A stretch of 64,000 bases of DNA from a virus. The stretch is from IMG/VR virus record IMGVR_UViG_3300037869_000009, positions 10,094 to 74,093 of that record; one strand, 5' to 3'. Under the pieces are notes generated by a model. The model had not been told where the DNA came from. It ran no database searches and saw only the letters and a program-made list of their open reading frames with translations. This document shows positions 10,211 through 23,794 of the stretch, in pieces (position 1 is the stretch's first letter; each line of letters begins with the position of its first letter). The position numbers were made by a program, and so were the translations under genes.

Positions 10211-11263
10211 TTAGACCGGTAAAACGGTGCTACGGCAATGACCGTGCAAGGGTGGGAAAATGGCTCCGATACCAGCCAACTGTTTGGGACTCTTTCCCTT
10301 GCTGAACTCGCCTACGTCATCGGCTTTGCCGTAACCACTTCGTGTCACAGTTGCGATCCGAACATTCTTTTCACCCTGTTTCACATACAGAATCCGATTC
10401 CCGTTCTGGTCCGTTCCTTCGTTGACCCAAGGACTGGCCTGGGTGATTTCTTCGGGGTCCTTCAGACTCGTGATCTTGTTGATGTGATTCATCGCGGTTT
10501 CAGTTGTAAACACTGTCCCGTGATAGAACCGGCATACATTCGAAGTCACTTCATCCAACACTGCCTGAAACACCCATTCCGTGATCCCGGCATCGTCAAA
10601 GGCCCCGAACTGCGAAAACGTCCGCGCATGGGTACTGAAGCTGTTAGCCACGACTCGCCAATAACTGGGTCCCCTGGACACACTGTTCCCCAGTGACGTC
10701 TGCAGCGACTTTCCGATCTCGATCGGCCCCTGTCCGGTCTGAAGTCCACGTTCCACAATCCCGCGGGCCCTGCCCGAGTGCCAATCGGCCCGGTTCCCAA
10801 GTTCATCGCGAACATAGTTCGTGGTGATTTGCCGAACCAACTTTTCAACCTTTCGATCGCGGGAAGACAGCTCCGCCCCGATCTCCATCTTGAAAGTGCG
10901 CTTCATGCTGGCCCGGGTAGCCTTGGCAAGCTTGGGCCCCTCGGACTCCAAGATGGCTGCGAACTTCGGGGGCACCGTGGCGATCTTCGCCTTCAGGATC
11001 CGGTTTGCTGCTTTCAGAACCTTGTCCACCTGACCATCCGTCATGCGGTCCCAGCTGACGTCAAGAGTATCCAGCGCAGCCTTCACGGCCCTGGCTTCGT
11101 CCCCGGCCACCGCGGCATTGATCCTGCGGGACAAGCGCTCCGTGATGACTACGAAGTCCGCGGCCTTCAAGGGGTCCAGCGCTTTGGTGATGTCTACCCG
11201 TAGCATCTGGGACGCAAGCTGTTCCGCAGCCAGGGCCCCAGACTGGTAGATCGCAACACTCAC
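10211..11263 (-). CDS. Head morphogenesis protein (SPP1 gp7 / MuF-like)
   Basis: FQAVLDEVTSNVCRFYHG and terminal FPPLHGHCRSTVLPV motifs; follows portal. Confidence 0.9.
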   Translation of the reverse strand: MSVAIYQSGALAAEQLASQMLRVDITKALDPLKAADFVVITERLSRRINAAVAGDEARAVKAALDTLDVSWDRMTDGQVDKVLKAANRILKAKIATVPPKFAAILESEGPKLAKATRASMKRTFKMEIGAELSSRDRKVEKLVRQITTNYVRDELGNRADWHSGRARGIVERGLQTGQGPIEIGKSLQTSLGNSVSRGPSYWRVVANSFSTHARTFSQFGAFDDAGITEWVFQAVLDEVTSNVCRFYHGTVFTTETAMNHINKITSLKDPEEITQASPWVNEGTDQNGNRILYVKQGEKNVRIATVTRSGYGKADDVGEFSKGKSPKQLAGIGAIFPPLHGHCRSTVLPV

Positions 11264-13257
11264 GTGGGCTGGACCATGGTGGCGAACACGTCCGCAGGAA
11301 TCTTGATCACTTCCGGTTCATCATCGTTATCATCCACCACAGTCACGGGTGGCTTCGCTGCCAGACGCGCTTCGCGCTCCCGTAGTTCGCAGCGTTTCGC
11401 TGCCACCGATTCTTCGATCTCCACGGCTTCGAGCTGGTCACGCAACTTCATCAACCGTGCTGCGTTCATCTTCAGCCGGCGCTTCGCGGTTGCAACGGCC
11501 CCCAGCGGTTCACCGATGCCTGAAGCTTCACCGGCTGTCGGGATATCGTTGTCATCGGTGACGTCCAACGGGATACCCGCAATCGTCATTGTGATGGGCT
11601 GTTCGGTCCAGTCCGCATCGATGCGGGGAAGCTCTGTGTGAAAGACACGGTCCGCAGCAATCACGCGCCCATCCTTCGGAACCAGGATCCCCACGCTGCT
11701 TAGCTTCGTAAGCGCTTCGGCCATCTCCAAGGGATCTGTGATGCGTGGACCATCGGAAACCAGCTTCCAATATTTGATCCCGAGTGCTGGAAGAATCATG
11801 CGATTCAGCGTGAAATCAGTGCTTAGTCGTTCGGGTCCAAAGACCTGCGTTTCTGCGAACTCCAGTGCGGCCTGTGCACTGGCTCGGTTGAAGTCACGGA
11901 TGTCACCACGAAGCATGCGGGGCAGCCGAAACGACATGCCTACTTTATCGATGTTGCGTTCATCGTAGTTTTGAAACAGCGCGTCTTTCATGTGCGCGTC
12001 TGTCAATGGTTTGATCTCGATCCTACAACGCCCCGAGTTTTCCAAGCCCATCATCGCTTGGATCGGTGGGGAGTCCGCTTCCAGGATCAGGATCTTGTGG
12101 AAGTTGCGCTTCCCCTTGATCTCACCTTCGATGAAGGACCGGATAGTCTTCACGGAATCGGCCTGCAGCCGTCCACCACTGACCGTGATCACCAGCGGTG
12201 GAATGGACTTATTTTCGAAGTAAGTGAAATTCACTTCTTCGGCATGGCGGGAGCCCAGCACTGAAATCAGATTCCCGATCCAACGCGGTACGCCATACGC
12301 GCTAGTCGCGCTGTGGATACGGAAGTGAATCACTTCGTTTGCTGCTACCGCCTTGGGTTCCTTCTTCTGTAGGCCCTTCAAATCGTCATAAGCTAGGCCG
12401 GTGCGTGCGCTGATGACCCTGGGGTCCCCAAACTCTTTGAACCACACAGGCTTCTGACCAGCCACGATCTGGATGAAGCGCCGGAACGTGCGATACACGG
12501 TCTGGGGCATGAATGTGATGGGGCCGCGCTGCACTACCTGCTGAACCGGGATGCGATCCACATCTTGTTCAACAAGGCGCACGGTATGGGCTGCCATCCC
12601 AACGAACTGCTGGGGCTTGCCAGCTGCGTTGCGCACCACCTCCCAGTAGCCGTTCCCGGTTGTCTCCATGTCGGCCCGGGTCCGATGGCGCAGCGTGACA
12701 AAACTGATGTCCGGGCATGCATACTCAAAAAACGATTCGGCCCGCGCGCGTTCGATACGCATGTCCCGCTTCAGCCGTTCGATCTCTGAATCCACTTCGG
12801 CTTCCGTGGGTTCATTGTCCTTGGCTTCGGGATCTCCTTCGCCTGACCGCAACAGCCGATCCAGAAACATTGCATCGCGAACCTTGTCCCGCGCGTCATC
12901 GGCATCCAGGTTGATCGTGGGTTCAAAGTGATGACCAAACCCATCAATGTTCGTGGCGTACGAATCGATATTTTGACGCAAGCTGTTCGAGTGCTCTAGC
13001 AGCTCGTAAAGGGTCTGAGGATCGAACGGCGGGGTCAGGTACCCATCCACCATTGCGAAGCCGGACGCTGCACTGGTGATGATGTTGGCGGGGTCATTGC
13101 TGGCACTGCTGGAAAGCGATGCAGAGTCTTTCCGGACCTGGGACTTACCTACCAGCTCGAAGCGATCGCCACCGCCGATGATGGTTGCTCGCACACGTTC
13201 AGTCAGATCATCGGTGGCATTCATCGCCACCGATGCTGCTTTCTCGCGCGCACCCAT
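11260..13257 (-). CDS. Portal protein (PBSX-like)
   Basis: 665 aa; D.ETTGNGYWEVVRN..GKP, ANEVIHFR, YGVPRWIG, ..F..KSIPPL.I.VSGG, SFRLPRML.G...DFNRASA motifs. Confidence 0.9.
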   Translation of the reverse strand: MGAREKAASVAMNATDDLTERVRATIIGGGDRFELVGKSQVRKDSASLSSSASNDPANIITSAASGFAMVDGYLTPPFDPQTLYELLEHSNSLRQNIDSYATNIDGFGHHFEPTINLDADDARDKVRDAMFLDRLLRSGEGDPEAKDNEPTEAEVDSEIERLKRDMRIERARAESFFEYACPDISFVTLRHRTRADMETTGNGYWEVVRNAAGKPQQFVGMAAHTVRLVEQDVDRIPVQQVVQRGPITFMPQTVYRTFRRFIQIVAGQKPVWFKEFGDPRVISARTGLAYDDLKGLQKKEPKAVAANEVIHFRIHSATSAYGVPRWIGNLISVLGSRHAEEVNFTYFENKSIPPLVITVSGGRLQADSVKTIRSFIEGEIKGKRNFHKILILEADSPPIQAMMGLENSGRCRIEIKPLTDAHMKDALFQNYDERNIDKVGMSFRLPRMLRGDIRDFNRASAQAALEFAETQVFGPERLSTDFTLNRMILPALGIKYWKLVSDGPRITDPLEMAEALTKLSSVGILVPKDGRVIAADRVFHTELPRIDADWTEQPITMTIAGIPLDVTDDNDIPTAGEASGIGEPLGAVATAKRRLKMNAARLMKLRDQLEAVEIEESVAAKRCELREREARLAAKPPVTVVDDNDDEPEVIKIPADVFATMVQPT

Positions 13258-13550: not shown

Positions 13551-13722
13551 GTGACCCCTTTGGCTCCCGGCAATGTAACTCGGGTGCCAAACGGTGGGCC
13601 ACGGCGGCGCTGTGCGTACTCTTACAGCACTGCCAGTTGAAGCGTCCTTCCCCCCAGTTGACGCTACGCTGTCTTATCCGGGGCGCTCCATCTGGAACAG
13701 TGCAGATGGAGCGCCTTCCCCT

Positions 13723-14079
13723 TCAGGCACGCTTACTCTTCGTGGCGAGTTGACCCGCTGGGACACGTCCCCGGGGCGCTGGCGCCACTTCTTCATTCCG
13801 TTTACGCCCTTCCACGATCGCTTGACGAAGTGCTGGATCCACTGCGCCGGGAGTACGGCCTTTCATGGCCCGGAATCCTTTGTCCGAGCATGCCGCATCG
13901 ATGCGATCCCGAAGATTCAAGTCAGTGATGTAGCGATGCAAAGAGCTGTAGCCAACATCCAGGTGTTTGGCTGCAGCTTCTTTGTTTCCGCGGTGTTTGA
14001 CGATCGCACCCACGATCAAATCCGCCACGTGCTTGTCGCCCTTCACCAGTCGTAGCGCTTGAATCTTCGATACTGACAT
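13723..14079 (-). CDS. Fis-like HTH DNA-binding protein
   Basis: AIVKHRGNKEAAAKHLDVGYSSLHRYI HTH; GGAGG RBS supports ATG at 14079. Confidence 0.75.
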   Translation of the reverse strand: MSVSKIQALRLVKGDKHVADLIVGAIVKHRGNKEAAAKHLDVGYSSLHRYITDLNLRDRIDAACSDKGFRAMKGRTPGAVDPALRQAIVEGRKRNEEVAPAPRGRVPAGQLATKSKRA

Positions 14080-14100
14080 TCTCTTTACCTCCAAGGTCCA

Positions 14101-14120
14101 GTATCTCAGAACTGCGATAC
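14101..14120. promoter_or_regulatory. 20-bp operator copy (GTATCTCAGAACTGCGATAC)
   Basis: One mismatch to consensus GTATCYCAG-N4-GRGATAC; between the divergent HTH and sigma4 genes. Confidence 0.7.
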
Positions 14121-14195
14121 CGGATCAAGGCCAATCGATCCGTACGGGAAAACACCAGTATTGAACCGCAAAAAAGGTGGCTATTATGCGGAGTC

Positions 14196-14693
14196 ATGCG
14201 CGTCCCCGCATTCGCCTATCTCGCGTTCTATCGATCCCAGCACCCGACTCCGCGCCGGTCCCACCCGAAGCCAGCTCACAACCCGTGGGATGAACTGGAG
14301 TGGTGGCAGCACCCGGAAGCCATACGCGCCGTCAATGAACACCCCAACGGGATGACACTCGAAGAAATCGGGCGCCACATGGGGATCACTCGGGAACGGG
14401 TCAGGCAAGTGGAAGCCACCGCGCTACGGAAGCTGAAAGAATGCAGCGGGGATGAAGTGATCAACGTGGGCCGCTTCGCGGTTGCGATCCCGGACTGTGA
14501 GCGCTGCGACCAGCCCTACATCCGACGCAATGGACGTGACCGGCGCTGCGACTTATGCGAAGCCAAGCGCCGGAAGAACCGCAGATCCCGGGCCCACATC
14601 AGTCCAGCATTAGGCGTTGCACAGCGGACCGCACTTCATCCGCTGTCATCGTCCAGTGGTCATGTGGAAAGTGGCAGACATAGCGCAGCTTGA
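14196..14693 (+). CDS. Sigma70 region-4-only protein with C-terminal CxxC/CxxC
   Basis: GMTLEEIGRHMGITRERVRQVEATALRKLK = sigma region 4.2 HTH; no region 2. Confidence 0.8.
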   Translation: MRVPAFAYLAFYRSQHPTPRRSHPKPAHNPWDELEWWQHPEAIRAVNEHPNGMTLEEIGRHMGITRERVRQVEATALRKLKECSGDEVINVGRFAVAIPDCERCDQPYIRRNGRDRRCDLCEAKRRKNRRSRAHISPALGVAQRTALHPLSSSSGHVESGRHSAA

Positions 14694-14931
14694 ACGCCTG
14701 GAAGTGCTTCAGTGCCAACACATCGCCCACACAATGGGCAAGAATCGCTACCGCCAGCTGCGCCGGACCACTTCCGGAATACCCCCAGTCCAGACCCGTT
14801 GGCGACTTGCGCAACAGGTCCAGACGGGGGTTCAGGGCTTCTTCGTGAGTCGTGCCGGGCTGTGGCCCGGAGTGCAGGACCACGACACTGCAGCCCGTTA
14901 CGGAACGATGGCCGATGTATTCCACTGACAT
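14599..14931 (-). CDS. DUF6166-like protein
   Basis: SPTGLDWGYSGSGPAQLAVAILA motif (recalled family); ATG at 14931. Confidence 0.7.
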   Translation of the reverse strand: MSVEYIGHRSVTGCSVVVLHSGPQPGTTHEEALNPRLDLLRKSPTGLDWGYSGSGPAQLAVAILAHCVGDVLALKHFQAFKLRYVCHFPHDHWTMTADEVRSAVQRLMLD

Positions 14932-14944
14932 AGGGACCAAACGT

Positions 14945-15154
14945 TTACCGTCTGCAATCCCGCAGTCTATCCGCAATATCGTCCAAGTGCTTCGCCTGTT
15001 CGGCTTCAGCCCCTGCAGACCGTTCCAGGGCCCGCGCAATGCGCTCCATGATGTGGCCCGCATCATCCGCGGCTGCCCTTCCCGTGGGGGCCAGCGCGGC
15101 CCCCAGGCCAAAGGACAGGAACGCAACGAACCCGATTACTGCTGATTGCTTCAT
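14945..15154 (-). CDS. Small signal-peptide/membrane protein with coiled coil
   Basis: MKQSAVIGFVAFLSFGLGAALA hydrophobic N-terminus; promoter immediately upstream. Confidence 0.65.
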   Translation of the reverse strand: MKQSAVIGFVAFLSFGLGAALAPTGRAAADDAGHIMERIARALERSAGAEAEQAKHLDDIADRLRDCRR

Positions 15155-15164
15155 GCTATCGATT

Positions 15165-15184
15165 GTATCCCAGCTGCGGAATAC
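15165..15184 (-). promoter_or_regulatory. Operator copy in promoter ATTGCA-17-TACAAT
   Basis: GTATCCCAGCTGCGGAATAC; -10 lies 7 nt upstream of the ATG at 15154. Confidence 0.75.
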
Positions 15185-15252
15185 TGCAATGCCCCGGATG
15201 AAGTATTTGTTGGCACGATTCTGGGGGCCCGGGCCAGGGGATCCAGGGGGCC

Positions 15253-15267
15253 GATAGCTTAGCTATC
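15253..15267. repeat. GATAGC-TTA-GCTATC inverted motif copy 1
   Basis: Exact 15-mer, intergenic. Confidence 0.85.
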
Positions 15268-15401
15268 TGCGCCGGGGAAACAGACCGCTGAACGTCCCCA
15301 GATAGGGGCGATCACCAAATCGCCCAAAAACGAAGCTAAGTATATGAAATCATTCAGGACACCCCCGATCGCCAGATCGGCGATTCGGGGGATCACTTCG
15401 G

Positions 15402-15626
15402 TCAGACTTCGAAGGTCACCAGACCGGTCCGGTGGCTGACCACCGTGGTGGTCTGGGGCTCTACCCGAAGCTGGGCAGGGTCCAGGACCAGCATGGTCCC
15501 GGAGTCCGCCAAATCGGCGGTAACCACGAAGGCCACCCCGTCCCGGATCTCCCGGACTCGGACTCGAAGTTCCGAGGTACGGAAGCCACGGAGTCCGGAA
15601 GCGATAGCGTAGGTTTTGGTGTTCAT
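15402..15626 (-). CDS. Small early-type hypothetical protein
   Basis: MNTKTYAIASG... 74 aa, AAAGGAA RBS-like sequence upstream. Confidence 0.65.
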   Translation of the reverse strand: MNTKTYAIASGLRGFRTSELRVRVREIRDGVAFVVTADLADSGTMLVLDPAQLRVEPQTTTVVSHRTGLVTFEV

Positions 15627-15652
15627 GGGAGCGGTTCCTTTCGAGTGGTGAG

Positions 15653-15811
15653 TTAGCGTGCGGAGTTGGAAGCAAGCCACTTCACAGCGGCTGCGGGGTT
15701 CCTGCGCTGGCACTTGCTGCAGGGGTACACAACCCGTTCGCTGCAGAGTCCGCCACACAGGGGGCAGTGGCCGGACTTGATCTTGTTGATGGTGGTCTTC
15801 GCGGTGTTCAT
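15653..15811 (-). CDS. Small CxxC/CxxC protein
   Basis: MNTAKTTINKIKSGHCPLCGGLCSERVVYPCSKC...; follows a promoter cassette. Confidence 0.6.
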   Translation of the reverse strand: MNTAKTTINKIKSGHCPLCGGLCSERVVYPCSKCQRRNPAAAVKWLASNSAR

Positions 15812-15830
15812 CTTGCGTTCCCCTTGATTG

Positions 15831-15918
15831 ACTCGACTTCTAAAGAGTATCCCAGATCGGGGATACTGCATAGCCCCCTTCGCAACTATTTTCGAAGTGC
15901 TGGGGAACACTGCGAAAT
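15831..15918. repeat. ~88-bp promoter cassette, copy A (copy B at 16299-16387)
   Basis: Near-identical direct repeat, roughly 9 differences by eye. Confidence 0.9.
15847..15866 (-). promoter_or_regulatory. Operator copy (GTATCCCAGATCGGGGATAC)
   Basis: Consensus match; minus-strand -10 TACTCT. Confidence 0.85.
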
Positions 15919-15920
15919 GG

Positions 15921-16094
15921 TCACTTTTGTGTCCAGGGTTCGCTTCGCAACCGAGCCACGATCCCTTCAGCGGTTGCGCGGTAACAGACGCGAGTCCAGA
16001 ACTCGCCATCGATCCGGACTTCATACGCGGTGCGGTCCAGCACCCCGAACAAACCCCAGTTGTTGGGCACTTCCACGATTGTGATCTCTTTCAT
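15921..16094 (-). CDS. Small hypothetical protein (57 aa), not in the ORF track
   Basis: Manual translation MKEITIVEVPNNWGLFGVLDRTAYEVRIDGEFWTRVCYRATAEGIVARLRSEPWTQK. Confidence 0.55.
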   Translation of the reverse strand: MKEITIVEVPNNWGLFGVLDRTAYEVRIDGEFWTRVCYRATAEGIVARLRSEPWTQK

Positions 16095-16096
16095 GA

Positions 16097-16276
16097 CTAC
16101 TCCAGCACCACCACGTTTACAGGCAATGTGATCTCATTTAGGCGCCACCGGACCCACTGGTCAGGGGCCACTTCCCGGACGGTTCCACCACTTGCAAGTT
16201 CGTAGAACCGGAGTCCGATCCCATACGAGTTGACCACAGTTTCAATCCGCCCGTTTACCTTGATCTGCTTTGGCAT
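16097..16276 (-). CDS. Small hypothetical protein (59 aa), not in the ORF track
   Basis: Manual translation MPKQIKVNGRIETVVNSYGIGLRFYELASGG...VVVLE; GGGAG RBS; follows cassette B. Confidence 0.6.
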   Translation of the reverse strand: MPKQIKVNGRIETVVNSYGIGLRFYELASGGTVREVAPDQWVRWRLNEITLPVNVVVLE

Positions 16277-16298
16277 CTGCTGCGCTCCCGTTTGCTAC

Positions 16299-16387
16299 AC
16301 TCGACTTCTAAAGAGTATCCCAGTTCGGAGATACTGCATAGCCCCCAGCACCAACTATTTTCGAAGTGCTGGGGACCACTGCGGAAT
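16299..16387. repeat. ~88-bp promoter cassette, copy B
   Basis: Direct repeat of 15831-15918. Confidence 0.9.
16315..16334 (-). promoter_or_regulatory. Operator copy (GTATCCCAGTTCGGAGATAC)
   Basis: Consensus match. Confidence 0.85.
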
Positions 16388-16887
16388 CAGCGCAGCGTGA
16401 GCGCACCATATCGCGCCATCCCAGGCTTGCTGGGGTCGAAGATGTTTCCGCGCGCAAAGTTCTTTTCCGGGGCCTTCCAGCTAGCAGGCTTCAAAATGTC
16501 CCCAGTTTCCCGAACAATGAAGACCAGCACGCTTCTGCCAGTGCCGTGGATCGTCGCAATCCGGACGTACTTCGGACCGATCCTGTTGATCTCCACCGTG
16601 GCGTTCGGTCCCACGATCTCCTGCGCACGCTTCAGCCAGGCAGCCAAAGCCGTGTTGAAATCCGGGGCTGCATCCGGTGCGGACTCCGCTTCCGGGGCTT
16701 CTGGGAGCGCCACAGAAGGCGCCACCGCTGCGGACTGGGCAACCGCCGGGGCCGCTTCCAGACGGGCCTGCAGGGCCCTGCAGCGCGCCAGCAGCACGTC
16801 CCCCAGGACAATGTTCCCGGCAACGTAGGCTTTGCTGGCCTGGTCCGCGGTGGTCTGCAGTTCGGTCTGAAGTTCGTTGCGTTCCAT
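16387..16887 (-). CDS. Conserved phage early-type protein (GDILKPASWKAP...RGNI motif)
   Basis: KYVRI...SV..F...TGDILKPASWKAP...RGNIF motif recalled from many phage hypotheticals; ATG at 16887. Confidence 0.75.
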   Translation of the reverse strand: MERNELQTELQTTADQASKAYVAGNIVLGDVLLARCRALQARLEAAPAVAQSAAVAPSVALPEAPEAESAPDAAPDFNTALAAWLKRAQEIVGPNATVEINRIGPKYVRIATIHGTGRSVLVFIVRETGDILKPASWKAPEKNFARGNIFDPSKPGMARYGALTLR

Positions 16888-16921
16888 CTTGCTACCCCGT
16901 GATTGACTCGACTCCCTAATA

Positions 16922-16941
16922 GTATCCCAGATCTGGGATAC
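16922..16941 (-). promoter_or_regulatory. Operator copy in promoter TTGATT-17-TACTAT
   Basis: GTATCCCAGATCTGGGATAC (perfect palindrome) fills the -35/-10 spacer. Confidence 0.9.
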
Positions 16942-16987
16942 AATCAACAGGGTCCCCGATGTTTTTTTTTCGGGGACCCCGGAACGG

Positions 16988-17197
16988 TCACCACAAACCG
17001 ATCGCGAGTCCCGCGATCTTCGTGGCGTAGGTGGTGGGGCAAGCACGCTTGCCCAGACGTTCCATGGTGGAACGAACGTCCGCCATGAAGATGGGAAGGT
17101 TGTGGGCGTTGGTTGCCCACGTCCGGATGGAGTCGGACTCCACCTGGGAAAGGGCCGTGGTGAAGAAGATTTCTGCTTTGGTGCTGCGCTTGGCCAT
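16988..17197 (-). CDS. Small early-type hypothetical protein
   Basis: MAKRSTKAEIFF... 69 aa; followed by GC hairpin at ~16951-16980. Confidence 0.65.
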   Translation of the reverse strand: MAKRSTKAEIFFTTALSQVESDSIRTWATNAHNLPIFMADVRSTMERLGKRACPTTYATKIAGLAIGLW

Positions 17198-17233
17198 CGT
17201 TCGTTCCCCCGTGATTGACTCGACTTCTAAAGA

Positions 17234-17253
17234 GTATACCAGTACCGGGATAC
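17234..17253 (-). promoter_or_regulatory. Operator copy in promoter TTGAAT-17-TACTCT
   Basis: GTATACCAGTACCGGGATAC. Confidence 0.85.
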
Positions 17254-17318
17254 ATTCAAGCGCTCTGGTGACCTGGACTCCAATCTTTTTTTTCTTTTGT
17301 CCTACACGCAAACAGTCA

Positions 17319-17350
17319 TAGACAGTATCCCAGTCATGGGATACAATCAA
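17319..17350. promoter_or_regulatory. Overlapping bidirectional sigma70-like promoters sharing one operator (17325-17344)
   Basis: Plus strand TAGACA-17-TACAAT; minus strand TTGATT-17-TACTGT; operator GTATCCCAGTCATGGGATAC. Confidence 0.8.
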
Positions 17351-17423
17351 TGGAGTAGGGACAGGGAAGCGGGAACCGGAGCCGGACCCAGGGCACCTTG
17401 ACATTTTCTCAAGATGGCCCACA

Positions 17424-17708
17424 ATGGAAGGGAAGTATTTTCGAATGGATGCAGTTCAGGCGTTAGCGGATGCGCGGGGTTACGCGCTGGCTGGCCGTGT
17501 TCGATTCACGAAGCACGGAACCAACGAAATGAAGGCAGCATTCGCGGACGTGGATGACGTGATGAACGCCCTAATCAAGGGAACGCACTGTGGTCCCGGG
17601 GATCGTCCCGGACGCTGGAGAATCACGGGCCCGGACTTGTCCGGTACCCACGACCTGACTGTGGTGGTGGTATTCGAAAACGGTGTTCTTGTAGTCACAG
17701 TGTGGTGA
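17424..17708 (+). CDS. DUF4258-family (RelE-like fold) putative toxin
   Basis: GRVRFTKHGTNEM...DDVMNAL...RWRITGPDLSG..LTVVV pattern; start may be 17445. Confidence 0.75.
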   Translation: MEGKYFRMDAVQALADARGYALAGRVRFTKHGTNEMKAAFADVDDVMNALIKGTHCGPGDRPGRWRITGPDLSGTHDLTVVVVFENGVLVVTVW

Positions 17709-17713
17709 AACAA

Positions 17714-18184
17714 ATGGCAAAAACGAAGACGTGTGGACTGTGCAACACAGGGGTATGGCGACCCGTGGATCTCGACTTCACGCAAGCGATTGCCGGGATT
17801 AGCTTCGCTGCGGTGCTGCCTGCGGAACGGTGTTCGCACTGCGGGGAATCAGCACTTTCTCTACAAGTGATGAAAGCTTGGGAACTGGGGGTGGCGCAGC
17901 AACTGGGGGATCTCGCGATCAGGACCGGGGACGCGTTCCGGTTCATGCGGAAGTCCCTGGGTCTGTCCGGGGTGGCGCTGGCCAACCTGCTAGGGGTGGC
18001 TGCTGAGACTGTTTCGCGCTGGGAAAATGTGGCCCCCGATGCGCATGCGTTCGTGTTGCTGACCACGATGGTGGCCGATCGGATTGCCGGAACTAGTGCC
18101 ACGCGGGACCGCTTGCGGGCCACTGGGGGCACGCGTCCCTTGGAACCGGTTGCGGTTACCCTCCCCCGGCTGAAGGCTTCCTAG
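17714..18184 (+). CDS. MqsA-like antitoxin (Zn finger + XRE HTH)
   Basis: CGLC...CSHCGE N-terminal Zn finger; FRFMRKSLGLSGVALANLLGVAAETVSRWEN HTH; paired with DUF4258 gene. Confidence 0.8.
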   Translation: MAKTKTCGLCNTGVWRPVDLDFTQAIAGISFAAVLPAERCSHCGESALSLQVMKAWELGVAQQLGDLAIRTGDAFRFMRKSLGLSGVALANLLGVAAETVSRWENVAPDAHAFVLLTTMVADRIAGTSATRDRLRATGGTRPLEPVAVTLPRLKAS

Positions 18185-18251
18185 CGCCGCTGGGACCCGG
18201 GAATCGCGTCCCGGGTCTGCAGCCCCTGGGACGCCAGGGCTTCCGAGCCCC

Positions 18252-18266
18252 GATAGCTTAGCTATC
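18252..18266. repeat. GATAGC-TTA-GCTATC inverted motif copy 2
   Basis: Exact 15-mer, intergenic. Confidence 0.85.
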
Positions 18267-18359
18267 TGCCCCCTGGACTCCTGGAACCTGGTGGCACAAA
18301 GGCGTGCCAAATCTTTCTTCGGGACGGTTCACGAAATCTTCGTCTCCCCTGTTGTATTT

Positions 18360-18379
18360 GTATCTCAGTGGCGAGATAC
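18360..18379 (+). promoter_or_regulatory. Operator copy (GTATCTCAGTGGCGAGATAC)
   Basis: Consensus match upstream of 18416 gene. Confidence 0.85.
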
Positions 18380-18415
18380 TAGTATTCAGGCAGTAGGGAC
18401 ACCGGAGAAACGAAG

Positions 18416-18736
18416 ATGACCATCACGAAGACCCACGACCAACGCACCGTATACGCAGCTGAAACTGAACTCCCGGCATGGGCCCGCGGGTGGACCCAAT
18501 GTGACAACACCGGCGCCAGCTACAGCACGTATCTCGCGGAAGCGGACCGCGAACACTCGAAGGCTGACCTGCTGCAGATTGAAGCGGAAGCCAAGGCATT
18601 GCGCACCCGCGCACAGTGCGAAGCTGCACTAGCGGAACTAGGAGTCCGGGCCGGTGGAACGTGCGCATCGATGCGGAATATGTACGTCATCGTGAAGTAT
18701 GCGGACCTGTGGCCCCTTCGACAGGTCAGCAAGTAA
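18416..18736 (+). CDS. Small early-type hypothetical protein
   Basis: 106 aa; GGAGAAACGAAG-ATG leader shared with the 19401 gene. Confidence 0.7.
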   Translation: MTITKTHDQRTVYAAETELPAWARGWTQCDNTGASYSTYLAEADREHSKADLLQIEAEAKALRTRAQCEAALAELGVRAGGTCASMRNMYVIVKYADLWPLRQVSK

Positions 18737-18791
18737 GCCGGATTCCGGGGGTCCCGAACTGGGACCCCTGCATCGTCTCTGCCTACACCGC

Positions 18792-18806
18792 GATAGCTTA
18801 GCTATC
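18792..18806. repeat. GATAGC-TTA-GCTATC inverted motif copy 3
   Basis: Exact 15-mer, intergenic. Confidence 0.85.
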
Positions 18807-18888
18807 TGGCCCATCGATCCGAAGCGCCGGAAGCTCTGGACAATCGTGCCAAATCTATTTTCGAAAATCGTCTTCCGACCCGTTGTTA

Positions 18889-18908
18889 GTATCCCAGTTC
18901 CGGGATAC
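18889..18908 (+). promoter_or_regulatory. Operator copy in promoter TTGTTA-17-TACTCT
   Basis: GTATCCCAGTTCCGGGATAC followed by inverted copy of the conserved leader TCTTTAGAAGTCGGGTC. Confidence 0.9.
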
Positions 18909-18945
18909 TCTTTAGAAGTCGGGTCAGCAACAAAGGTAAACGAAG

Positions 18946-19254
18946 ATGGCAAATCAAATGAGCGGTGTAGTGCAGCTGGGTGGGCATATCGATGTGGGCC
19001 AATGCGAAACACTTGGCAGTGGCCGGGTGGTGTGTGACCTGTGGGCCGATGTGATTCCGCACTGGGGTCTGAAGCCCGTAGCCGGCGCACGGTGGCGTGT
19101 TGCACTCCTGGGAGCGAACAGCGTGGAAGAACTCCGCATCGAAGCCCGCAAGCGCATCGATGAACTTCGCACGGCATGCGCCCACGGTTTGATTGTCAGC
19201 TACCGGGGCCCCGCGGACCGCTATTACAGCCGGTTCTACACCCGCGAAATCTGA
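18946..19254 (+). CDS. Small early-type hypothetical protein
   Basis: 102 aa after promoter cassette; GC hairpin at ~19263-19281 follows. Confidence 0.7.
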   Translation: MANQMSGVVQLGGHIDVGQCETLGSGRVVCDLWADVIPHWGLKPVAGARWRVALLGANSVEELRIEARKRIDELRTACAHGLIVSYRGPADRYYSRFYTREI

Positions 19255-19344
19255 AAACGGATCGGGGGCCCAACGGCCCCCCGTTTGGACGGCTTCCCGA
19301 AGTCTGGAAACTATCTTCGGGAATCGGTCCGAATGCACTGGTTA

Positions 19345-19364
19345 GTATCTCAGTTCCGAGATAC
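19345..19364 (+). promoter_or_regulatory. Operator copy (GTATCTCAGTTCCGAGATAC), -10 TACATT
   Basis: Consensus match upstream of 19401 gene. Confidence 0.85.
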
Positions 19365-19400
19365 ATTTATATTGTCAGGTAGCGGAACGGAGAAACGAAG

Positions 19401-19622
19401 ATGACCAGCAACGAAATCAAGGCACTTGCGGCGCGAACCTCGGAAACCACGAGCCTTAGCCTGGACCGTCTTCGCAACCTGGTCCGCACGGCCCGCGAAT
19501 GCGTCAAGTCCCACGGTTACAACCGCGAAGAAGCAGCCTACGAAATGGGATGTGTGGCCGGTTTCGAAGACAACAGCCAGTGCTGCAGCGCGGTCCAACG
19601 CCTGATGCTAGCTGCGATGTGA
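19401..19622 (+). CDS. Small early-type hypothetical protein
   Basis: 73 aa with strong RBS. Confidence 0.7.
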   Translation: MTSNEIKALAARTSETTSLSLDRLRNLVRTARECVKSHGYNREEAAYEMGCVAGFEDNSQCCSAVQRLMLAAM

Positions 19623-19677
19623 AGAGTCCCTGGGGGCCCCGGAAGGCCCCCAGTTGAGTCCGAAGGAAGGTAGTACG

Positions 19678-19932
19678 ATGTCCAGCAACGATTGCCCACG
19701 GGGGCGCCAGACGGCCCTAGATGCAGCGGAGTTTGTACGATTCGCCAGCGCCGGGTCCCTGTCCGGAACGCCCACCGTGGCGTACCTGGAAGCCTTGTAT
19801 CGCAAGGTGATCCAGTGGTCAGAGCTGGTGTCTGACCACCTCTTGATCGCACAGCAGCGCGAAGAACGGGAGCGCCACGGCCACAATCCGCCGATCACCC
19901 TCCCGGATTCCATGCGGGAGCCCAAAAGGTGA
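19678..19932 (+). CDS. Hypothetical protein
   Basis: ATG at 19678 with GAAGG RBS. Confidence 0.6.
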   Translation: MSSNDCPRGRQTALDAAEFVRFASAGSLSGTPTVAYLEALYRKVIQWSELVSDHLLIAQQREERERHGHNPPITLPDSMREPKR

Positions 19933-19962
19933 CAAACCCGTGCGATCGGGTATGCCCAGGTC

Positions 19963-20235
19963 ATGAGATACCGGATCACAGCGAAGGTCTGGGCATCGGC
20001 GTTGAATGCCCAGTCTGTGCGAACCTACCCGGTCCCACGTGGCTATGACAGCTGGGAAGCATTTGATGCCGCATGGGCACCGCAGTTTCCCGCTTCAGAG
20101 CTTGGAAACAACAATGAAATCCACGACTTAACAGACGGTCAGGTAATAGACTTGATCATACGCTGGGGACGGGCATCGATCGAAGAAGGTCCAGACGGAA
20201 TCCGTACCCTGTGCTTCGAAAATGACTACGATTGA
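19963..20235 (+). CDS. Hypothetical protein
   Basis: 90-aa ORF, last of the plus-strand cassette block. Confidence 0.65.
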   Translation: MRYRITAKVWASALNAQSVRTYPVPRGYDSWEAFDAAWAPQFPASELGNNNEIHDLTDGQVIDLIIRWGRASIEEGPDGIRTLCFENDYD

Positions 20236-20307
20236 TTGTAGGTGCGAGTGACCTGCACATAGGGCCCGCTTCGCCAGCGGGCCCGCGTGCGCGCGCTTTC
20301 TCGGACC

Positions 20308-20322
20308 AATAGCTAAGCTATC
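20308..20322. repeat. GATAGC-TTA-GCTATC motif copy 4 (inverted, 1 mismatch)
   Basis: AATAGCTAAGCTATC in the convergent intergenic gap. Confidence 0.7.
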
Positions 20323-20414
20323 GCCCCCGGAAGCCAGAAGGCTGCGCCAGCAGAGTTCAGATCTTCCGAGTTCAGGGGACTTCAGGTGCGGGCCACACCA
20401 CGATCGCCACCGCT

Positions 20415-21684: not shown

Positions 21685-22077
21685 ATGAGCATTGAATCAG
21701 AACGGCTGTTGACTGAAGCCGATATCGCGAAGCTGTGCAGTGTGGGCCGAAGCAAAGCCTACCAGATCATGAAGTCGATTCCGGATCACGTAGTCATCGG
21801 CACGGGTCCACGTCCAATGCTGCGGGTGCCGATGTGGGGTTTTCAACGTTGGACTGAAGCAGGCGGAGACAAGTCAGCATGCGAAAACTACTCAGAGTCA
21901 AAGGCAGCCCATATTGGTATTGCGAAGGACGAAACTGGAACGGAGATCCATACCGCCGCACTACCAAACAAACGGATGAAACCAAGGCCCGCGAAGTTGC
22001 CGAACGAATCGCAGCCGAAGAATCTCTTCCCACGCCTGATTACTACTCGCTCTATGACGCGTGCGCAGCGCTCCTAG
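21685..22077 (+). CDS. Excisionase-like HTH protein
   Basis: LLTEADIAKLCSVGRSKAYQIM...LRVP..GF.RW, directly upstream of and overlapping the integrase. Confidence 0.75.
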   Translation: MSIESERLLTEADIAKLCSVGRSKAYQIMKSIPDHVVIGTGPRPMLRVPMWGFQRWTEAGGDKSACENYSESKAAHIGIAKDETGTEIHTAALPNKRMKPRPAKLPNESQPKNLFPRLITTRSMTRAQRS

Positions 22078-22991
22078 TGGACAAGCAAGAATGTCGCGCA
22101 AGTGCAGCATCGATCCAGATTGTCACTGACAAGCTGACCCGAGTCATGCAGCACTTCGGGCCACAACGTGACACCCAAACACTTACGGACGATGACATCA
22201 AAGAATACATCATTGCCCGTCGTAAACACGTCTACAGGGGAAGGCCCATCAGCGATGCCACGATCCGGAAAGAGATCGGAAGGTTGTTCGAAGCGCTGCG
22301 ATTCGCGAAGCGAAAGAAGAAGTGGGCCGGTGAAATCGAGCAACTGCGAATGCCAAGGATGTTGGCACCGGATCAACCGAAGAAGCGTTATCTTCGCGAA
22401 GCGGAATACATAGCGATTCTTGAGCACATCCCGATCAAGCGCCGGGACTACATCGTGATGTGGTGCCACACCGGGGCGCGTTACAGTGAGCTGTTTCGCA
22501 TCGAAGCACAGCACATCGACGAATCGGATCCCAGCAAACCCCGTGTGTACTTGACCGGACGAAAGGGCCGGGTGGAATACAAAGAACGTTGGGTCCCTTT
22601 GTCCGCTGATGCGCTCGAAATCGTGACTGAACGTGCAAAACGCTTCCCCACAGGCCCACTGTTCCCAGACCTGTGGCACAACACGCACGTTCGGAAAGCG
22701 CTGGCCAAAGCTTGTCAACGCGTTGGTGTTCCGCCCTGTAGTCCCAACGATCTGCGCCGCACGTTCGCAACCTGGTATGGGCGCGTTGGGAAGAAGGAAG
22801 ACTTGAAAGCGATGATGGGCCACAGCCCATCATCGAAGCTGGTGGATCACGTCTATCGCCAGCTCCATGCGGACACCGGTTATGAACAGATTCAAGGGTT
22901 CCCGGCACGGCCCCCAATGGGACCACCGCCCTATCAGTACCGGCGCAGAAATCCGATCAATCCGGGGGACGGCGCTTCATTGGGCGCATGA
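21879..22991 (+). CDS. int: Tyrosine integrase
   Basis: HTGARYSE (R), GRKGR (K), NDLRRTFATW (x-x-x-R), MMGHS (H), HVY (Y); N-terminal arm-binding-like region. Confidence 0.9.
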   Translation: MRKLLRVKGSPYWYCEGRNWNGDPYRRTTKQTDETKAREVAERIAAEESLPTPDYYSLYDACAALLVDKQECRASAASIQIVTDKLTRVMQHFGPQRDTQTLTDDDIKEYIIARRKHVYRGRPISDATIRKEIGRLFEALRFAKRKKKWAGEIEQLRMPRMLAPDQPKKRYLREAEYIAILEHIPIKRRDYIVMWCHTGARYSELFRIEAQHIDESDPSKPRVYLTGRKGRVEYKERWVPLSADALEIVTERAKRFPTGPLFPDLWHNTHVRKALAKACQRVGVPPCSPNDLRRTFATWYGRVGKKEDLKAMMGHSPSSKLVDHVYRQLHADTGYEQIQGFPARPPMGPPPYQYRRRNPINPGDGASLGA

Positions 22992-23168: not shown

Positions 23169-23405
23169 TCATCCGCGTTCCACCTGATAAAGGGACCTGC
23201 AATCCGGGCACGTGTTTTCCCGCAGGTAGGTGGCTGACATGGGCGCTAGCAAGTCCCAGCCGCGCCGTGGTTTGACCCGTTTACAAAGCGATGCGGTATC
23301 GATGCCACCACCAGGTTTGTGGCCTTCCGCGGTCAGCTTGCGAATATGCCACTTGCCACTGGGTGGCTGGGCTTCACAGAAGCTGAACTCAATGGTGGGG
23401 GTCAT
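23169..23405 (-). CDS. Hypothetical Cys/His protein
   Basis: 78 aa, WH...SLC...CPDC. Confidence 0.65.
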   Translation of the reverse strand: MTPTIEFSFCEAQPPSGKWHIRKLTAEGHKPGGGIDTASLCKRVKPRRGWDLLAPMSATYLRENTCPDCRSLYQVERG

Positions 23406-23794
23406 CGTTTGCGCAGAGGGTGTAACTCCACGTAATAGTCCTGTTGCGTGAGTTCAGCAACGTATTGGCGAACCGCTGCAGCCAGCAACACGTCCGGTTT
23501 GTAACCCAAGCATTCGGACCACTTCACAGCCCTTTCAAGAGTCAACTTCTGTTGCCCCGATTCGATCACGTGATAGTTCGATGCATGATGCACACCTAGC
23601 AGTGACGCAAACCGCTTCTTCTTCAATCCACTTTTGCGGCGCAACGCTCGCAACATCGACGGTACGGGCAACTTCGGATCAACGGGCGGATGTGTTCGTG
23701 GCGGTGTCCGAGGCTGAAGCGTGATGCACGGATGTTCCACAGAACCCGGGCTGGGATCTTTCAAAACGCGTTCTTCAATGGGGCCGCGCATCAT
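23402..23794 (-). CDS. XRE-family HTH regulator
   Basis: LRALRRKSGLKKKRFASLLGV...YHVIESGQQKLTLERAVKWSECLG. Confidence 0.75.
   Translation of the reverse strand: MMRGPIEERVLKDPSPGSVEHPCITLQPRTPPRTHPPVDPKLPVPSMLRALRRKSGLKKKRFASLLGVHHASNYHVIESGQQKLTLERAVKWSECLGYKPDVLLAAAVRQYVAELTQQDYYVELHPLRKR

What the first reader, a model, noticed from the sequence alone, without database searches (positions are those of the whole stretch)
17319..18184. DUF4258/MqsA-like toxin-antitoxin pair at the centre of the regulon: a candidate TA-based lysis-lysogeny switch
Seen: the TA-like operon sits at the exact point where early transcription diverges; its near-consensus promoter (TAGACA-17-TACAAT) overlaps an opposite promoter (TTGATT-17-TACTGT) and both are covered by one copy of the 20-bp operator. 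Established: MqsA-type antitoxins bind palindromes in their own promoter and can repress distant genes. Inference: the antitoxin HTH may be the master repressor of all ten operators, so protease-triggered antitoxin loss would open the early genes. This is a hypothesis only.
Basis: inference. Interest (0 to 1): 0.75.

Follow-up and report, generated by a model that had tools for sequence, protein, structure and literature searches.

The report
Self-regulated toxin-antitoxin cassette in phage
The two genes are a real MqsR/MqsA-type toxin-antitoxin pair carried by a 107-kb temperate soil phage, but the pair has its own promoter and its own family-typical operator, so it most likely controls only itself and not the phage's ten early promoters.

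Summary
The 20-bp palindrome GTAT-N12-ATAC occurs exactly ten times in the 107-kb phage. All ten copies lie at window 14101-19364, six before leftward genes and four before rightward genes. The pair is the first rightward unit, behind TAGACA-17-TACAAT.

The gene names are right. The toxin (87 aa, true start 17445) folds like MqsR and belongs to DUF4258. The antitoxin (17714-18184) is a zinc-ribbon plus HTH protein of the MqsA/YgiT family.

The master-repressor idea is not supported.
- In 83 bacterial loci of this antitoxin family (mostly Myxococcota), 63 carry CTTGAC-N5-GTCAAG just upstream of the operon. Random windows of the same loci give a mean of 4.5.
- The recognition helix ETVSRWEN is conserved across the family.
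- The phage cassette keeps such a site, CTTGACATTTTCTCAAG at 17397-17413. It overlaps the -35 box of a second promoter and is the only copy in 107 kb.
- A related phage has related GTATCC...GGATAC promoter sites but no such cassette.

Best reading: an ordinary, self-regulated TA cassette placed behind a phage early promoter. The scan has found DUF4258-MqsA pairs before on other DNA. The protein that binds the 20-mer is unidentified; the XRE protein at 23402-23794 is the best lead.

The parts
17319..17347 (+). Phage-type early promoter P1: TAGACA, 17-nt spacer, TACAAT. The 20-bp palindrome at 17325-17344 fills the spacer and the first three bases of the -10 box.
   Evidence: It is one of ten GTAT-N12-ATAC sites in the genome.
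17322..17350 (-). Opposite promoter-like hexamers TTGATT-17-TACTGT over the same palindrome. Whether they function is unknown. The leftward gene 16988-17197 already has its own promoter-operator at 17234.
17397..17413 (.). Predicted operator of the antitoxin: CTTGACATTTTCTCAAG, the palindrome typical of this family.
   Evidence: It is the only match to CTTGA-N7-TCAAG in the 107-kb genome, at 0 or 1 mismatch. The same motif lies upstream of 63 of 83 family loci, against a control mean of 4.5.
17398..17425 (+). The cassette's own promoter P2: TTGACA, 16-nt spacer, CACAAT. Its -35 box lies inside the palindrome.
   Evidence: P1 and P2 are the only two 10-of-12 sigma-70-like matches in 13600-20400.
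17445..17708 (+). Toxin, 87 aa: DUF4258 family with an MqsR-like BECR (RelE-superfamily) fold. Presumed RNase.
   Evidence: 147 homologs, which start at this Met. 51 of 61 homologs hit PF14076. The model has pLDDT 95. The best PDB match is MqsR, 3hi2.
17714..18184 (+). Antitoxin, 156 aa, MqsA/YgiT family: zinc ribbon C7, C10, C40, C43, then an XRE-type HTH with recognition helix ETVSRWEN.
   Evidence: The family profile matches E. coli MqsA (3gn5) over nearly its whole length, E=1.6e-8. The complex model with the toxin scores 0.71 against a best control of 0.02.
18180..18266 (+). Three GC-rich hairpins after the antitoxin stop codon. The third is the 15-bp palindrome GATAGCTTAGCTATC (18252-18266). 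They probably mark the end of the cassette's transcript, although no U-tract follows.
   Evidence: RNA fold of 18180-18275, -45.5 kcal/mol.

Best explanation
This is a type II toxin-antitoxin cassette of the DUF4258/MqsA kind. It sits in the early region of a temperate 107-kb soil phage whose host is probably a member of the Myxococcota.

Shown:
- The toxin has an MqsR-like BECR fold.
- The antitoxin has the MqsA architecture.
- The two genes travel together in many bacterial genomes.
- The cassette has its own sigma-70-like promoter P2, whose -35 box lies inside a 17-bp palindrome of the type conserved upstream of this family's operons.

Inferred:
- An antitoxin dimer binds CTTGAC-N5-CTCAAG at 17397-17413 and represses P2. 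This gives the usual TA autoregulation and a steady low expression in the lysogen.
- The same site lies about 50 nt downstream of the start of P1 transcripts, so a bound antitoxin could also block transcripts coming from P1.
- P1 is an ordinary member of the phage's ten-promoter early set. Another factor controls it through the 20-mer.
- The cassette therefore behaves like a moron: it has its own promoter, its own operator and hairpins at its end. Its likely roles are prophage stabilisation or exclusion/abortive infection against other phages.
- It is a passenger of the early regulon, not its master switch.
For: TA identity:
- The toxin model has pLDDT 95 and its best PDB match is MqsR, 3hi2 (probability 1.0, TM 0.52-0.62). 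RelE, HigB and BrnT toxins follow.
- 51 of 61 toxin homologs hit PF14076.
- The antitoxin hits TIGR03830 at E=2.9e-12.
- The antitoxin family profile hits MqsA 3gn5 over profile positions 2-118.
- Of 83 family loci, 57 have the toxin directly upstream, 2 have the reverse order and 23 are solo.
- PMC11980606 lists DUF4258 as a BECR-fold TA toxin family and reports 17 DUF4258-MqsA fusions.
- The complex model scores 0.71 against a best control of 0.02. That mark was reached by 51 of 78 solved complexes and 2 of 108 mismatched pairs. The three runs agree in 100% of contacts and the partner pLDDT is 87 or more. Because the MqsR-MqsA complex is solved, this pass may only reflect likeness.

Own operator:
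- CTTGA-N7-TCAAG (up to 2 mismatches) lies upstream of 63 of 83 loci. Random windows of the same loci give a mean of 4.5 and a maximum of 9.
- The motif mostly sits about -36 or -53 from the start codon.
- The recognition helix is conserved across the family: S-R-W-E invariant, E-T and N at 90% or more.
- The CTTGCC..GGCAAG variants go with a distinct HTH subgroup.
- The window's site is the only copy in 107 kb and overlaps the -35 box of P2.

Independence of the 20-mer:
- Phage G001 shares 40-68% protein identity in synteny.
- G001 has four GTATCC..GGGATAC-TAGAT sites before gene starts. One is orthologous, lying before the HTH_8 gene and divergent from the sigma-r4 gene.
- Neither tblastn nor an HMM finds an MqsA or DUF4258 homolog in G001.
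Against: - No binding data exist.
- The 20-mer binder is not identified, so dual specificity of the antitoxin cannot be excluded.
- G001 is only 59% complete, although its stretch from the integrase to the portal gene is contiguous.
- Both proteins score below the curated cut-offs of their families when scanned alone.
- The cassette does sit directly behind the strongest-looking 20-mer promoter, at the point where early transcription diverges.
- A relative in another run keeps the cassette at the same place, so the position may be selected.
- The covariation of palindrome and HTH follows lineage, so it is not independent evidence.
Confidence: 0.75

Rival explanations
1. One reading: the MqsA-like antitoxin is the master repressor. 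It binds all ten 20-bp palindromes, and its proteolysis opens the early genes, making a TA-based lysis-lysogeny switch.
For: - Apart from the HTH_8 gene at 13723, it is the only clear sequence-specific HTH encoded behind one of the ten promoters.
- It sits at the divergence point behind the best promoter.
- From general knowledge, E. coli MqsA has been reported to bind palindromes outside its own operon.
Against: - The family operator CTTGAC-N5-GTCAAG has no likeness to the 20-mer. It is present once, at the cassette's own promoter.
- The recognition helix is conserved across the family.
- G001 has related 20-mer sites without the protein.
- The pair is a common chromosomal cassette.
Confidence: 0.07
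2. The cassette is functionally wired into the lytic programme. On induction, P1 gives a burst of toxin-first transcript. The RNase toxin then helps shut down the host or time early development, and the antitoxin restrains it in the lysogen.
For: - The tandem promoters P1 and P2 give the cassette two inputs.
- The toxin is translated first.
- The position is conserved in a relative.
Against: - G001 manages without the cassette.
- An antitoxin bound at 17397-17413 would also hinder P1 transcripts.
- There are no expression data.
Confidence: 0.12
3. The toxin is inactive or decayed, and only the antitoxin matters, as a small local regulator.
For: - 23 of 83 family loci have no detectable toxin.
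- The window's toxin scores below the Pfam cut-off.
Against: - The toxin ORF is intact.
- It is 63% identical to its nearest homolog.
- It keeps the family's invariant His and near-invariant Trp and Asp.
- It folds with pLDDT 95.
- It docks on the antitoxin in the complex model.
Confidence: 0.05

Closest known systems
E. coli MqsR/MqsA (YgiU/YgiT) type II toxin-antitoxin system
   Same: - The toxin gene comes first.
- The toxin has the MqsR-like BECR fold.
[quoted passage not shown] It aligns with MqsA over almost its whole length.
- There is a palindrome in its own promoter.
- The modelled toxin-antitoxin contact is through the antitoxin's N-terminal domain.
   Different: - The toxin belongs to Pfam DUF4258, not to the MqsR family, and no activity has ever been shown for it.
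- Where MqsA has Asn97 in the recognition helix, this family has Glu.
- The operator is CTTGAC-N5-GTCAAG rather than ACCT-N(2-4)-AGGT (the MqsA site is quoted from general knowledge).
- The antitoxin has about 25 extra C-terminal residues.
- The pair is carried by a phage.
DUF4258-MqsA toxin-antitoxin modules catalogued in PMC11980606 (RelE/ParE superfamily survey)
   Same: The same two families are adjacent or fused. Here 59 of 83 family loci are paired.
   Different: - That survey calls the family undescribed and lists its usual gene order as antitoxin-toxin (A/T). In this subfamily the order is toxin-antitoxin in 57 of 59 pairs.
- I did not see the shared operator, or its placement over the -35 box, described there.
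Prophage-borne TA 'morons' such as P1 Phd/Doc
   Same: A self-regulated TA pair carried by a temperate phage, with its own promoter. It plausibly acts in prophage maintenance or exclusion (general knowledge).
   Different: - The protein families are unrelated.
- This cassette also receives read-in from a phage early promoter that carries the phage's common operator.

Membership tests
MqsA/YgiT antitoxin family (PF15731, TIGR03830) | N-terminal zinc ribbon with two CxxC pairs | tested here: met
   C7, C10, C40 and C43. C40 and C43 are invariant and C10 is at least 90% conserved in the 26-sequence alignment.
MqsA/YgiT antitoxin family (PF15731, TIGR03830) | C-terminal XRE-type helix-turn-helix | tested here: met
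   HTH_3 at E=3.6e-4 and HTH_31. The HTH aligns with that of MqsA in 3gn5.
MqsA/YgiT antitoxin family (PF15731, TIGR03830) | Single-sequence score above the curated family cut-off | tested here: not met
   PF15731 scores 19.6 bits against a cut-off of 30. TIGR03830 scores 46.5 against 61.8. However, many homologs carry PF15731, and the profile of the subfamily hits MqsA at E=1.6e-8. This is a divergent subfamily.
MqsA/YgiT antitoxin family (PF15731, TIGR03830) | Encoded next to a BECR-fold toxin that it binds through its N-terminal domain | tested here: met
   The toxin gene ends 5 nt upstream. 59 of 83 family loci are paired. The complex model scores 0.71 against a control of 0.02; it is a model only, and a like complex is already solved.
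MqsA/YgiT antitoxin family (PF15731, TIGR03830) | Binds a palindrome in its own promoter | not testable with these tools
   In silico only. A conserved palindrome lies upstream of 63 of 83 loci and at 17397-17413 here.
DUF4258 (PF14076) BECR-fold toxins | Pfam match above the gathering score | tested here: not met
   17.5 bits against 25 for the window's protein. 51 of its 61 homologs match at E<=0.01, the best at E=3.8e-10.
DUF4258 (PF14076) BECR-fold toxins | RelE/MqsR-type alpha/beta (BECR) fold | tested here: met
   The model has pLDDT 95. Foldseek hits are MqsR 3hi2, then HigB, RelE, BrnT and YoeB.
DUF4258 (PF14076) BECR-fold toxins | Toxicity or RNase activity neutralised by the partner | not testable with these tools
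   According to PMC11980606, no member of the family has been characterised.
Phage master repressor of the ten 20-mer operators | Expected DNA specificity matches the operator | tested here: not met
   The family operator is CTTGAC-N5-GTCAAG and the recognition helix is conserved across the family. The 20-mer is GTATCCCAG-NN-CTGGGATAC.
Phage master repressor of the ten 20-mer operators | Co-occurs with the operator type in related phages | tested here: not met
   G001 has four related sites but no homolog. This rests on a single relative.

The most novel reading that the evidence does not exclude
The antitoxin, alone or with the toxin, also recognises the 20-bp palindrome or otherwise gates the ten early promoters. 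Loss of the antitoxin would then trigger the phage's early programme, making a toxin-antitoxin pair the lysis-lysogeny switch.
Probability: 0.07. Interest if true: 0.75.

Novelty: new member of a known kind. Interest (0 to 1): 0.3.

Why it matters
This removes an attractive but unsupported candidate for the master regulator of a striking ten-promoter phage regulon. The search now points to other proteins.

It also gives three concrete, testable predictions for a TA family that the literature calls undescribed:
- the operator is CTTGAC-N5-GTCAAG, placed over the -35 box;
- the toxin has an MqsR-like fold;
- the antitoxin N-terminal domain is the toxin-binding surface.

The tandem arrangement of a phage promoter followed by the cassette's own promoter is a tidy example of how a mobile TA cassette plugs into a phage circuit.

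Tried and rejected
- Scans of IMG/VR for the 20-mer (GTATCNCNGNNCNGNGATAC) and for GTATCC-N8-GGATACTA gave only single, chance-like matches.
- The search for related loci with the antitoxin in viral contigs gave only unrelated phages that share the HTH (L005-L008).
- The closest relative of the pair (P0001/P0028, 73% and 63% identity, same gene order) lies on a 2.2-kb contig whose DNA could not be fetched.
- A run with a 106-kb relative (X2) was laid on the region, but the table of differences was cut before the operator positions. Conservation of the 20-mer and of the 17397 site in that relative could therefore not be read.
- No RNA holder was listed for the region.
- The single-sequence toxin model was poor, pLDDT 65. 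It was replaced by the alignment-based model.
- PADLOC and PHROGs gave nothing for the toxin.
- The sigma-r4 protein alone found no relatives in viral contigs.
- 80 portal relatives from metagenomes carried no multi-copy GTAT-N12-ATAC sites. Only L310 shares the HTH_8, sigma-r4 and 20795 genes.
- I considered the sigma-r4/zinc-ribbon protein as the 20-mer binder and rate it unlikely. Its recognition helix is identical in G000, G001 and G002, yet G002 has no GTATCC-type site in 101 kb.

Full report
**Context.** The window is bases 10094-74093 of a 107,034-bp IMG/VR virus record rated 98% complete.
- It encodes a portal protein (11260-13257, minus strand), a Mu-F-like head protein, a major capsid protein and a tyrosine integrase (21879-22991). 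It is therefore a temperate tailed phage.
- An identical 11.8-kb contig and the best sequencing run come from a soil metagenome.

**The observation.**
- The pattern GTATCCCAGNNCTGGGATAC with up to three mismatches gives 9 matches, against 0.02 expected.
- The looser GTAT-N12-ATAC occurs exactly ten times in the whole genome: at 14101, 15165, 15847, 16315, 16922, 17234, 17325, 18360, 18889 and 19345.
- Oriented by the gene that follows, each copy lies between a TTGnnn-like hexamer and TAC(T/A)nT. About half are followed by a conserved leader that ends in a ribosome-binding site and ATG.
- Six copies serve leftward genes and four serve rightward genes. The two innermost, 17234 and 17325, are 91 bp apart.

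**The toxin.**
- Its homologs are 85-89 aa long and begin at the window protein's residue 8, so the start codon is ATG 17445.
- A library-wide HMMER search gave 147 relatives. 51 of 61 of them hit Pfam DUF4258, although the window protein alone stays below the cut-off.
- A model built on that alignment has pLDDT 95. Its best PDB match is the MqsR toxin of 3hi2, followed by HigB, RelE, BrnT and YoeB.

**The antitoxin.**
- It has C7, C10, C40 and C43, followed by an XRE-type HTH.
- Its homologs are annotated as YgiT family and many carry PF15731.
- TIGR03830 scores E=2.9e-12, below its cut-off.
- A profile of the subfamily matches E. coli MqsA over almost its full length, E=1.6e-8.

**The pair.**
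- A complex model of the antitoxin N-terminal domain with the toxin scores 0.71, against a best control of 0.02. That mark was reached by 51 of 78 solved complexes and 2 of 108 mismatched pairs. The runs agree 100% and the partner pLDDT is at least 87. Because MqsR-MqsA is a solved complex, this shows likeness rather than proof.
- PMC11980606 lists DUF4258 as a BECR-fold TA toxin family that is undescribed experimentally, and records DUF4258-MqsA fusions.

**Is the pair a conserved module?** A scan of 185,579 species genomes with the antitoxin alignment returned 205 relatives, of which the best 80 were kept. They are overwhelmingly Myxococcota MAGs. Together with three loci fetched earlier (L107-L109), that makes 83 loci:
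- 57 have a DUF4258 gene directly upstream on the same strand;
- 2 have it directly downstream;
- 23 have none.

This is a common chromosomal cassette, sometimes found beside other TA pairs.

**The family's operator.**
- The first three loci I read all carried a palindrome of the form CTTGA(C/A)-N5-(G/T)TCAAG just before the operon.
- Across all 83 loci, CTTGA-N7-TCAAG with up to two mismatches occurs in the 130 nt upstream of the operon in 63. Random windows of equal length from the same loci give a mean of 4.5 and a maximum of 9.
- The consensus is aCTTGAC-N5-GTCAAGt.
- It sits mostly at -35/-36 or about -53 from the start codon, so the TTGAC of the left half is positioned to serve as a -35 box.
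- The recognition helix ETVSRWEN is conserved across the family: S-R-W-E invariant, E-T and N at 90% or more.
- The subgroup with CTTGCC..GGCAAG has a distinct HTH signature (KFIRK...ELG). This fits the idea that the protein reads this palindrome, though the signal follows lineage.

**The same site in the phage.**
- CTTGACATTTTCTCAAG lies at 17397-17413. The CTCAAG right half is also seen in other family members.
- It is the only match in the 107-kb genome at zero or one mismatch.
- It overlaps the -35 box of TTGACA-16-CACAAT (17398-17425). Together with P1, this is one of only two strong sigma-70-like matches in 13600-20400.
- The cassette has therefore brought its own promoter and operator, and it sits downstream of a phage-type promoter.
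- Three hairpins follow the antitoxin stop codon.
- This layout is that of a self-contained, self-regulated insert. Nothing in the antitoxin's expected specificity resembles the 20-mer.

**Independence of the 20-mer from the cassette.**
- A portal search found a related phage, G001 (IMGVR_UViG_3300036761_002481). It shares 40-68% protein identity in synteny over most of the genome.
- Between its integrase and portal genes it has four sites: GTATCCGAACGTTGGGATAC, a one-base variant of that, and two degenerate copies. Each is followed by TA(G/A)AT and lies 30-70 nt before a gene start.
- One site is orthologous to the window's 14101 site. It lies between the divergent sigma-r4 gene and the HTH_8 gene that heads the packaging operon.
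- Neither tblastn nor an HMM with filters off finds an MqsA or DUF4258 homolog in G001.
- The operator type therefore exists without the cassette. This is one relative only, and the record is 59% complete, but the relevant stretch is contiguous.

**Who binds the 20-mer?** This remains open. Apart from the excisionase-like gene, the phage's other HTH proteins are three.
- **An XRE protein at 23402-23794.** It hits HTH_19 and HTH_3 above their cut-offs. It has a homolog in G001 (34% identity) and none in G002, and G002 lacks GTATCC-type sites.
- **An HTH_8-like protein at 13723-14094.** It is present in G001, L310 and weakly in G002.
- **A protein at 14196-14693 made of sigma-70 region 4.2 plus a zinc ribbon.** Its recognition helix is identical in three phages with different or absent sites, so it is an unlikely binder.

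My rough odds are: XRE 35%, HTH_8 10%, sigma-r4 10%, the antitoxin 7%, and another phage or host factor for the rest. With three genomes this is only a lead.

**Mechanism proposed.**
- In the lysogen, the antitoxin (inferred to act as a dimer) sits on 17397-17413 and throttles P2. This keeps toxin and antitoxin at a balanced low level.
- P1 is held off by whatever binds the 20-mers.
- On induction, P1 fires together with the other nine promoters. A bound antitoxin about 50 nt downstream may damp the read-in.
- The likely benefit is prophage retention or exclusion of other phages, as for other prophage TA pairs.
- Shown: the family memberships, the pairing, the conserved palindrome, its uniqueness in the phage, and the promoter hexamers.
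- Inferred: binding, repression, toxicity and biological role.

**Comparison and novelty.**
- The pair works like MqsRA and is a divergent member of the MqsA family, with a DUF4258 toxin. This combination is already catalogued.
- Earlier notes of this scan record DUF4258-MqsA pairs in several other genomes, phages and prophages among them.
- This is a new member of a known kind.
- The modest new points are the family-wide operator and the two-promoter wiring.

**Verdict.** The TA identity is supported. The TA-based master switch is not supported (about 7%). Interest is 0.3.

Noticed in passing
window 14196-14693 (+): A stand-alone protein made of sigma-70 region 4.2 (Sigma70_r4, E=1.3e-11; best NCBIfam hits are RpoD and MzaA) plus a C-terminal CxxC...CxxC zinc ribbon. 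Homologs in phages G001, G002 and L310 have an identical recognition helix in the three aligned (G000, G001, G002). The gene always lies opposite to the surrounding genes and divergent from the HTH_8 gene. It could mimic sigma or bind -35 boxes.
   Followed up: partly
window 23402-23794 (-): The only canonical XRE/HTH_19 protein of the phage, next to the integrase. It has a homolog in G001, which has GTATCC-type sites, and none in G002, which has none. It is the best lead for the 20-mer repressor.
   Followed up: partly
L106 12137, 13301, 16162, 16889 (G001 = IMGVR_UViG_3300036761_002481): A related phage carries four promoter-associated sites, GTATCCGAAC(G/A)TTGGGATAC followed by TA(G/A)AT. 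The outer bases match those of the window's 20-mer, but the core differs.
   Followed up: yes
window 16988-17197 (-): The first leftward gene at the divergence point (69 aa). A low-confidence Atlas model (pLDDT 0.60) resembles the N-terminal domains of anti-sigma factors (FecR, zf-HC2, DUF4880).
   Followed up: partly
window 15847-19400, gene-side flank of the 20-mers: About half of the ten promoter cassettes share a leader of about 22 nt (TCTTTAGAAGTCGAGTCAATCA) between the -10 box and the ribosome-binding site. Several also share an upstream CACTTCGAAAATAGTT-like word. Whole promoter-leader units therefore appear to have been duplicated.
   Followed up: no
G002 = record of L098 (IMGVR_UViG_3300005825_000044), genome-wide; L310 5855 and 9128: Relatives carry dispersed 20-bp perfect palindromes. 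G002 has GTGTCTCCTCGAGGAGACAC in 17 copies over 101 kb, mostly after genes. L310 has GTGTGGCCCCGGGGCCACAC. They may be terminator-like or regulatory hairpins, and resemble the genome-wide palindrome another note reports in this window.
   Followed up: partly
L109-L189 (bacterial DUF4258/MqsA loci): In many loci the palindrome starts 35-36 nt before the start codon. The promoter would then give a leaderless or nearly leaderless mRNA. A second class has it at about -53.
   Followed up: partly
window 18252-18266: The 15-bp palindrome GATAGCTTAGCTATC lies just after the cassette. Another note of the scan reports copies at 15253, 18792 and 20308. It is unlike both the 20-mer and the TA operator.
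   Followed up: no
window 14000-19500 against run X2: A 106,430-bp contig in another public run is a relative, with 80-92% DNA likeness in patches of the early region. It keeps the TA pair and has rearranged promoter cassettes.
   Followed up: partly
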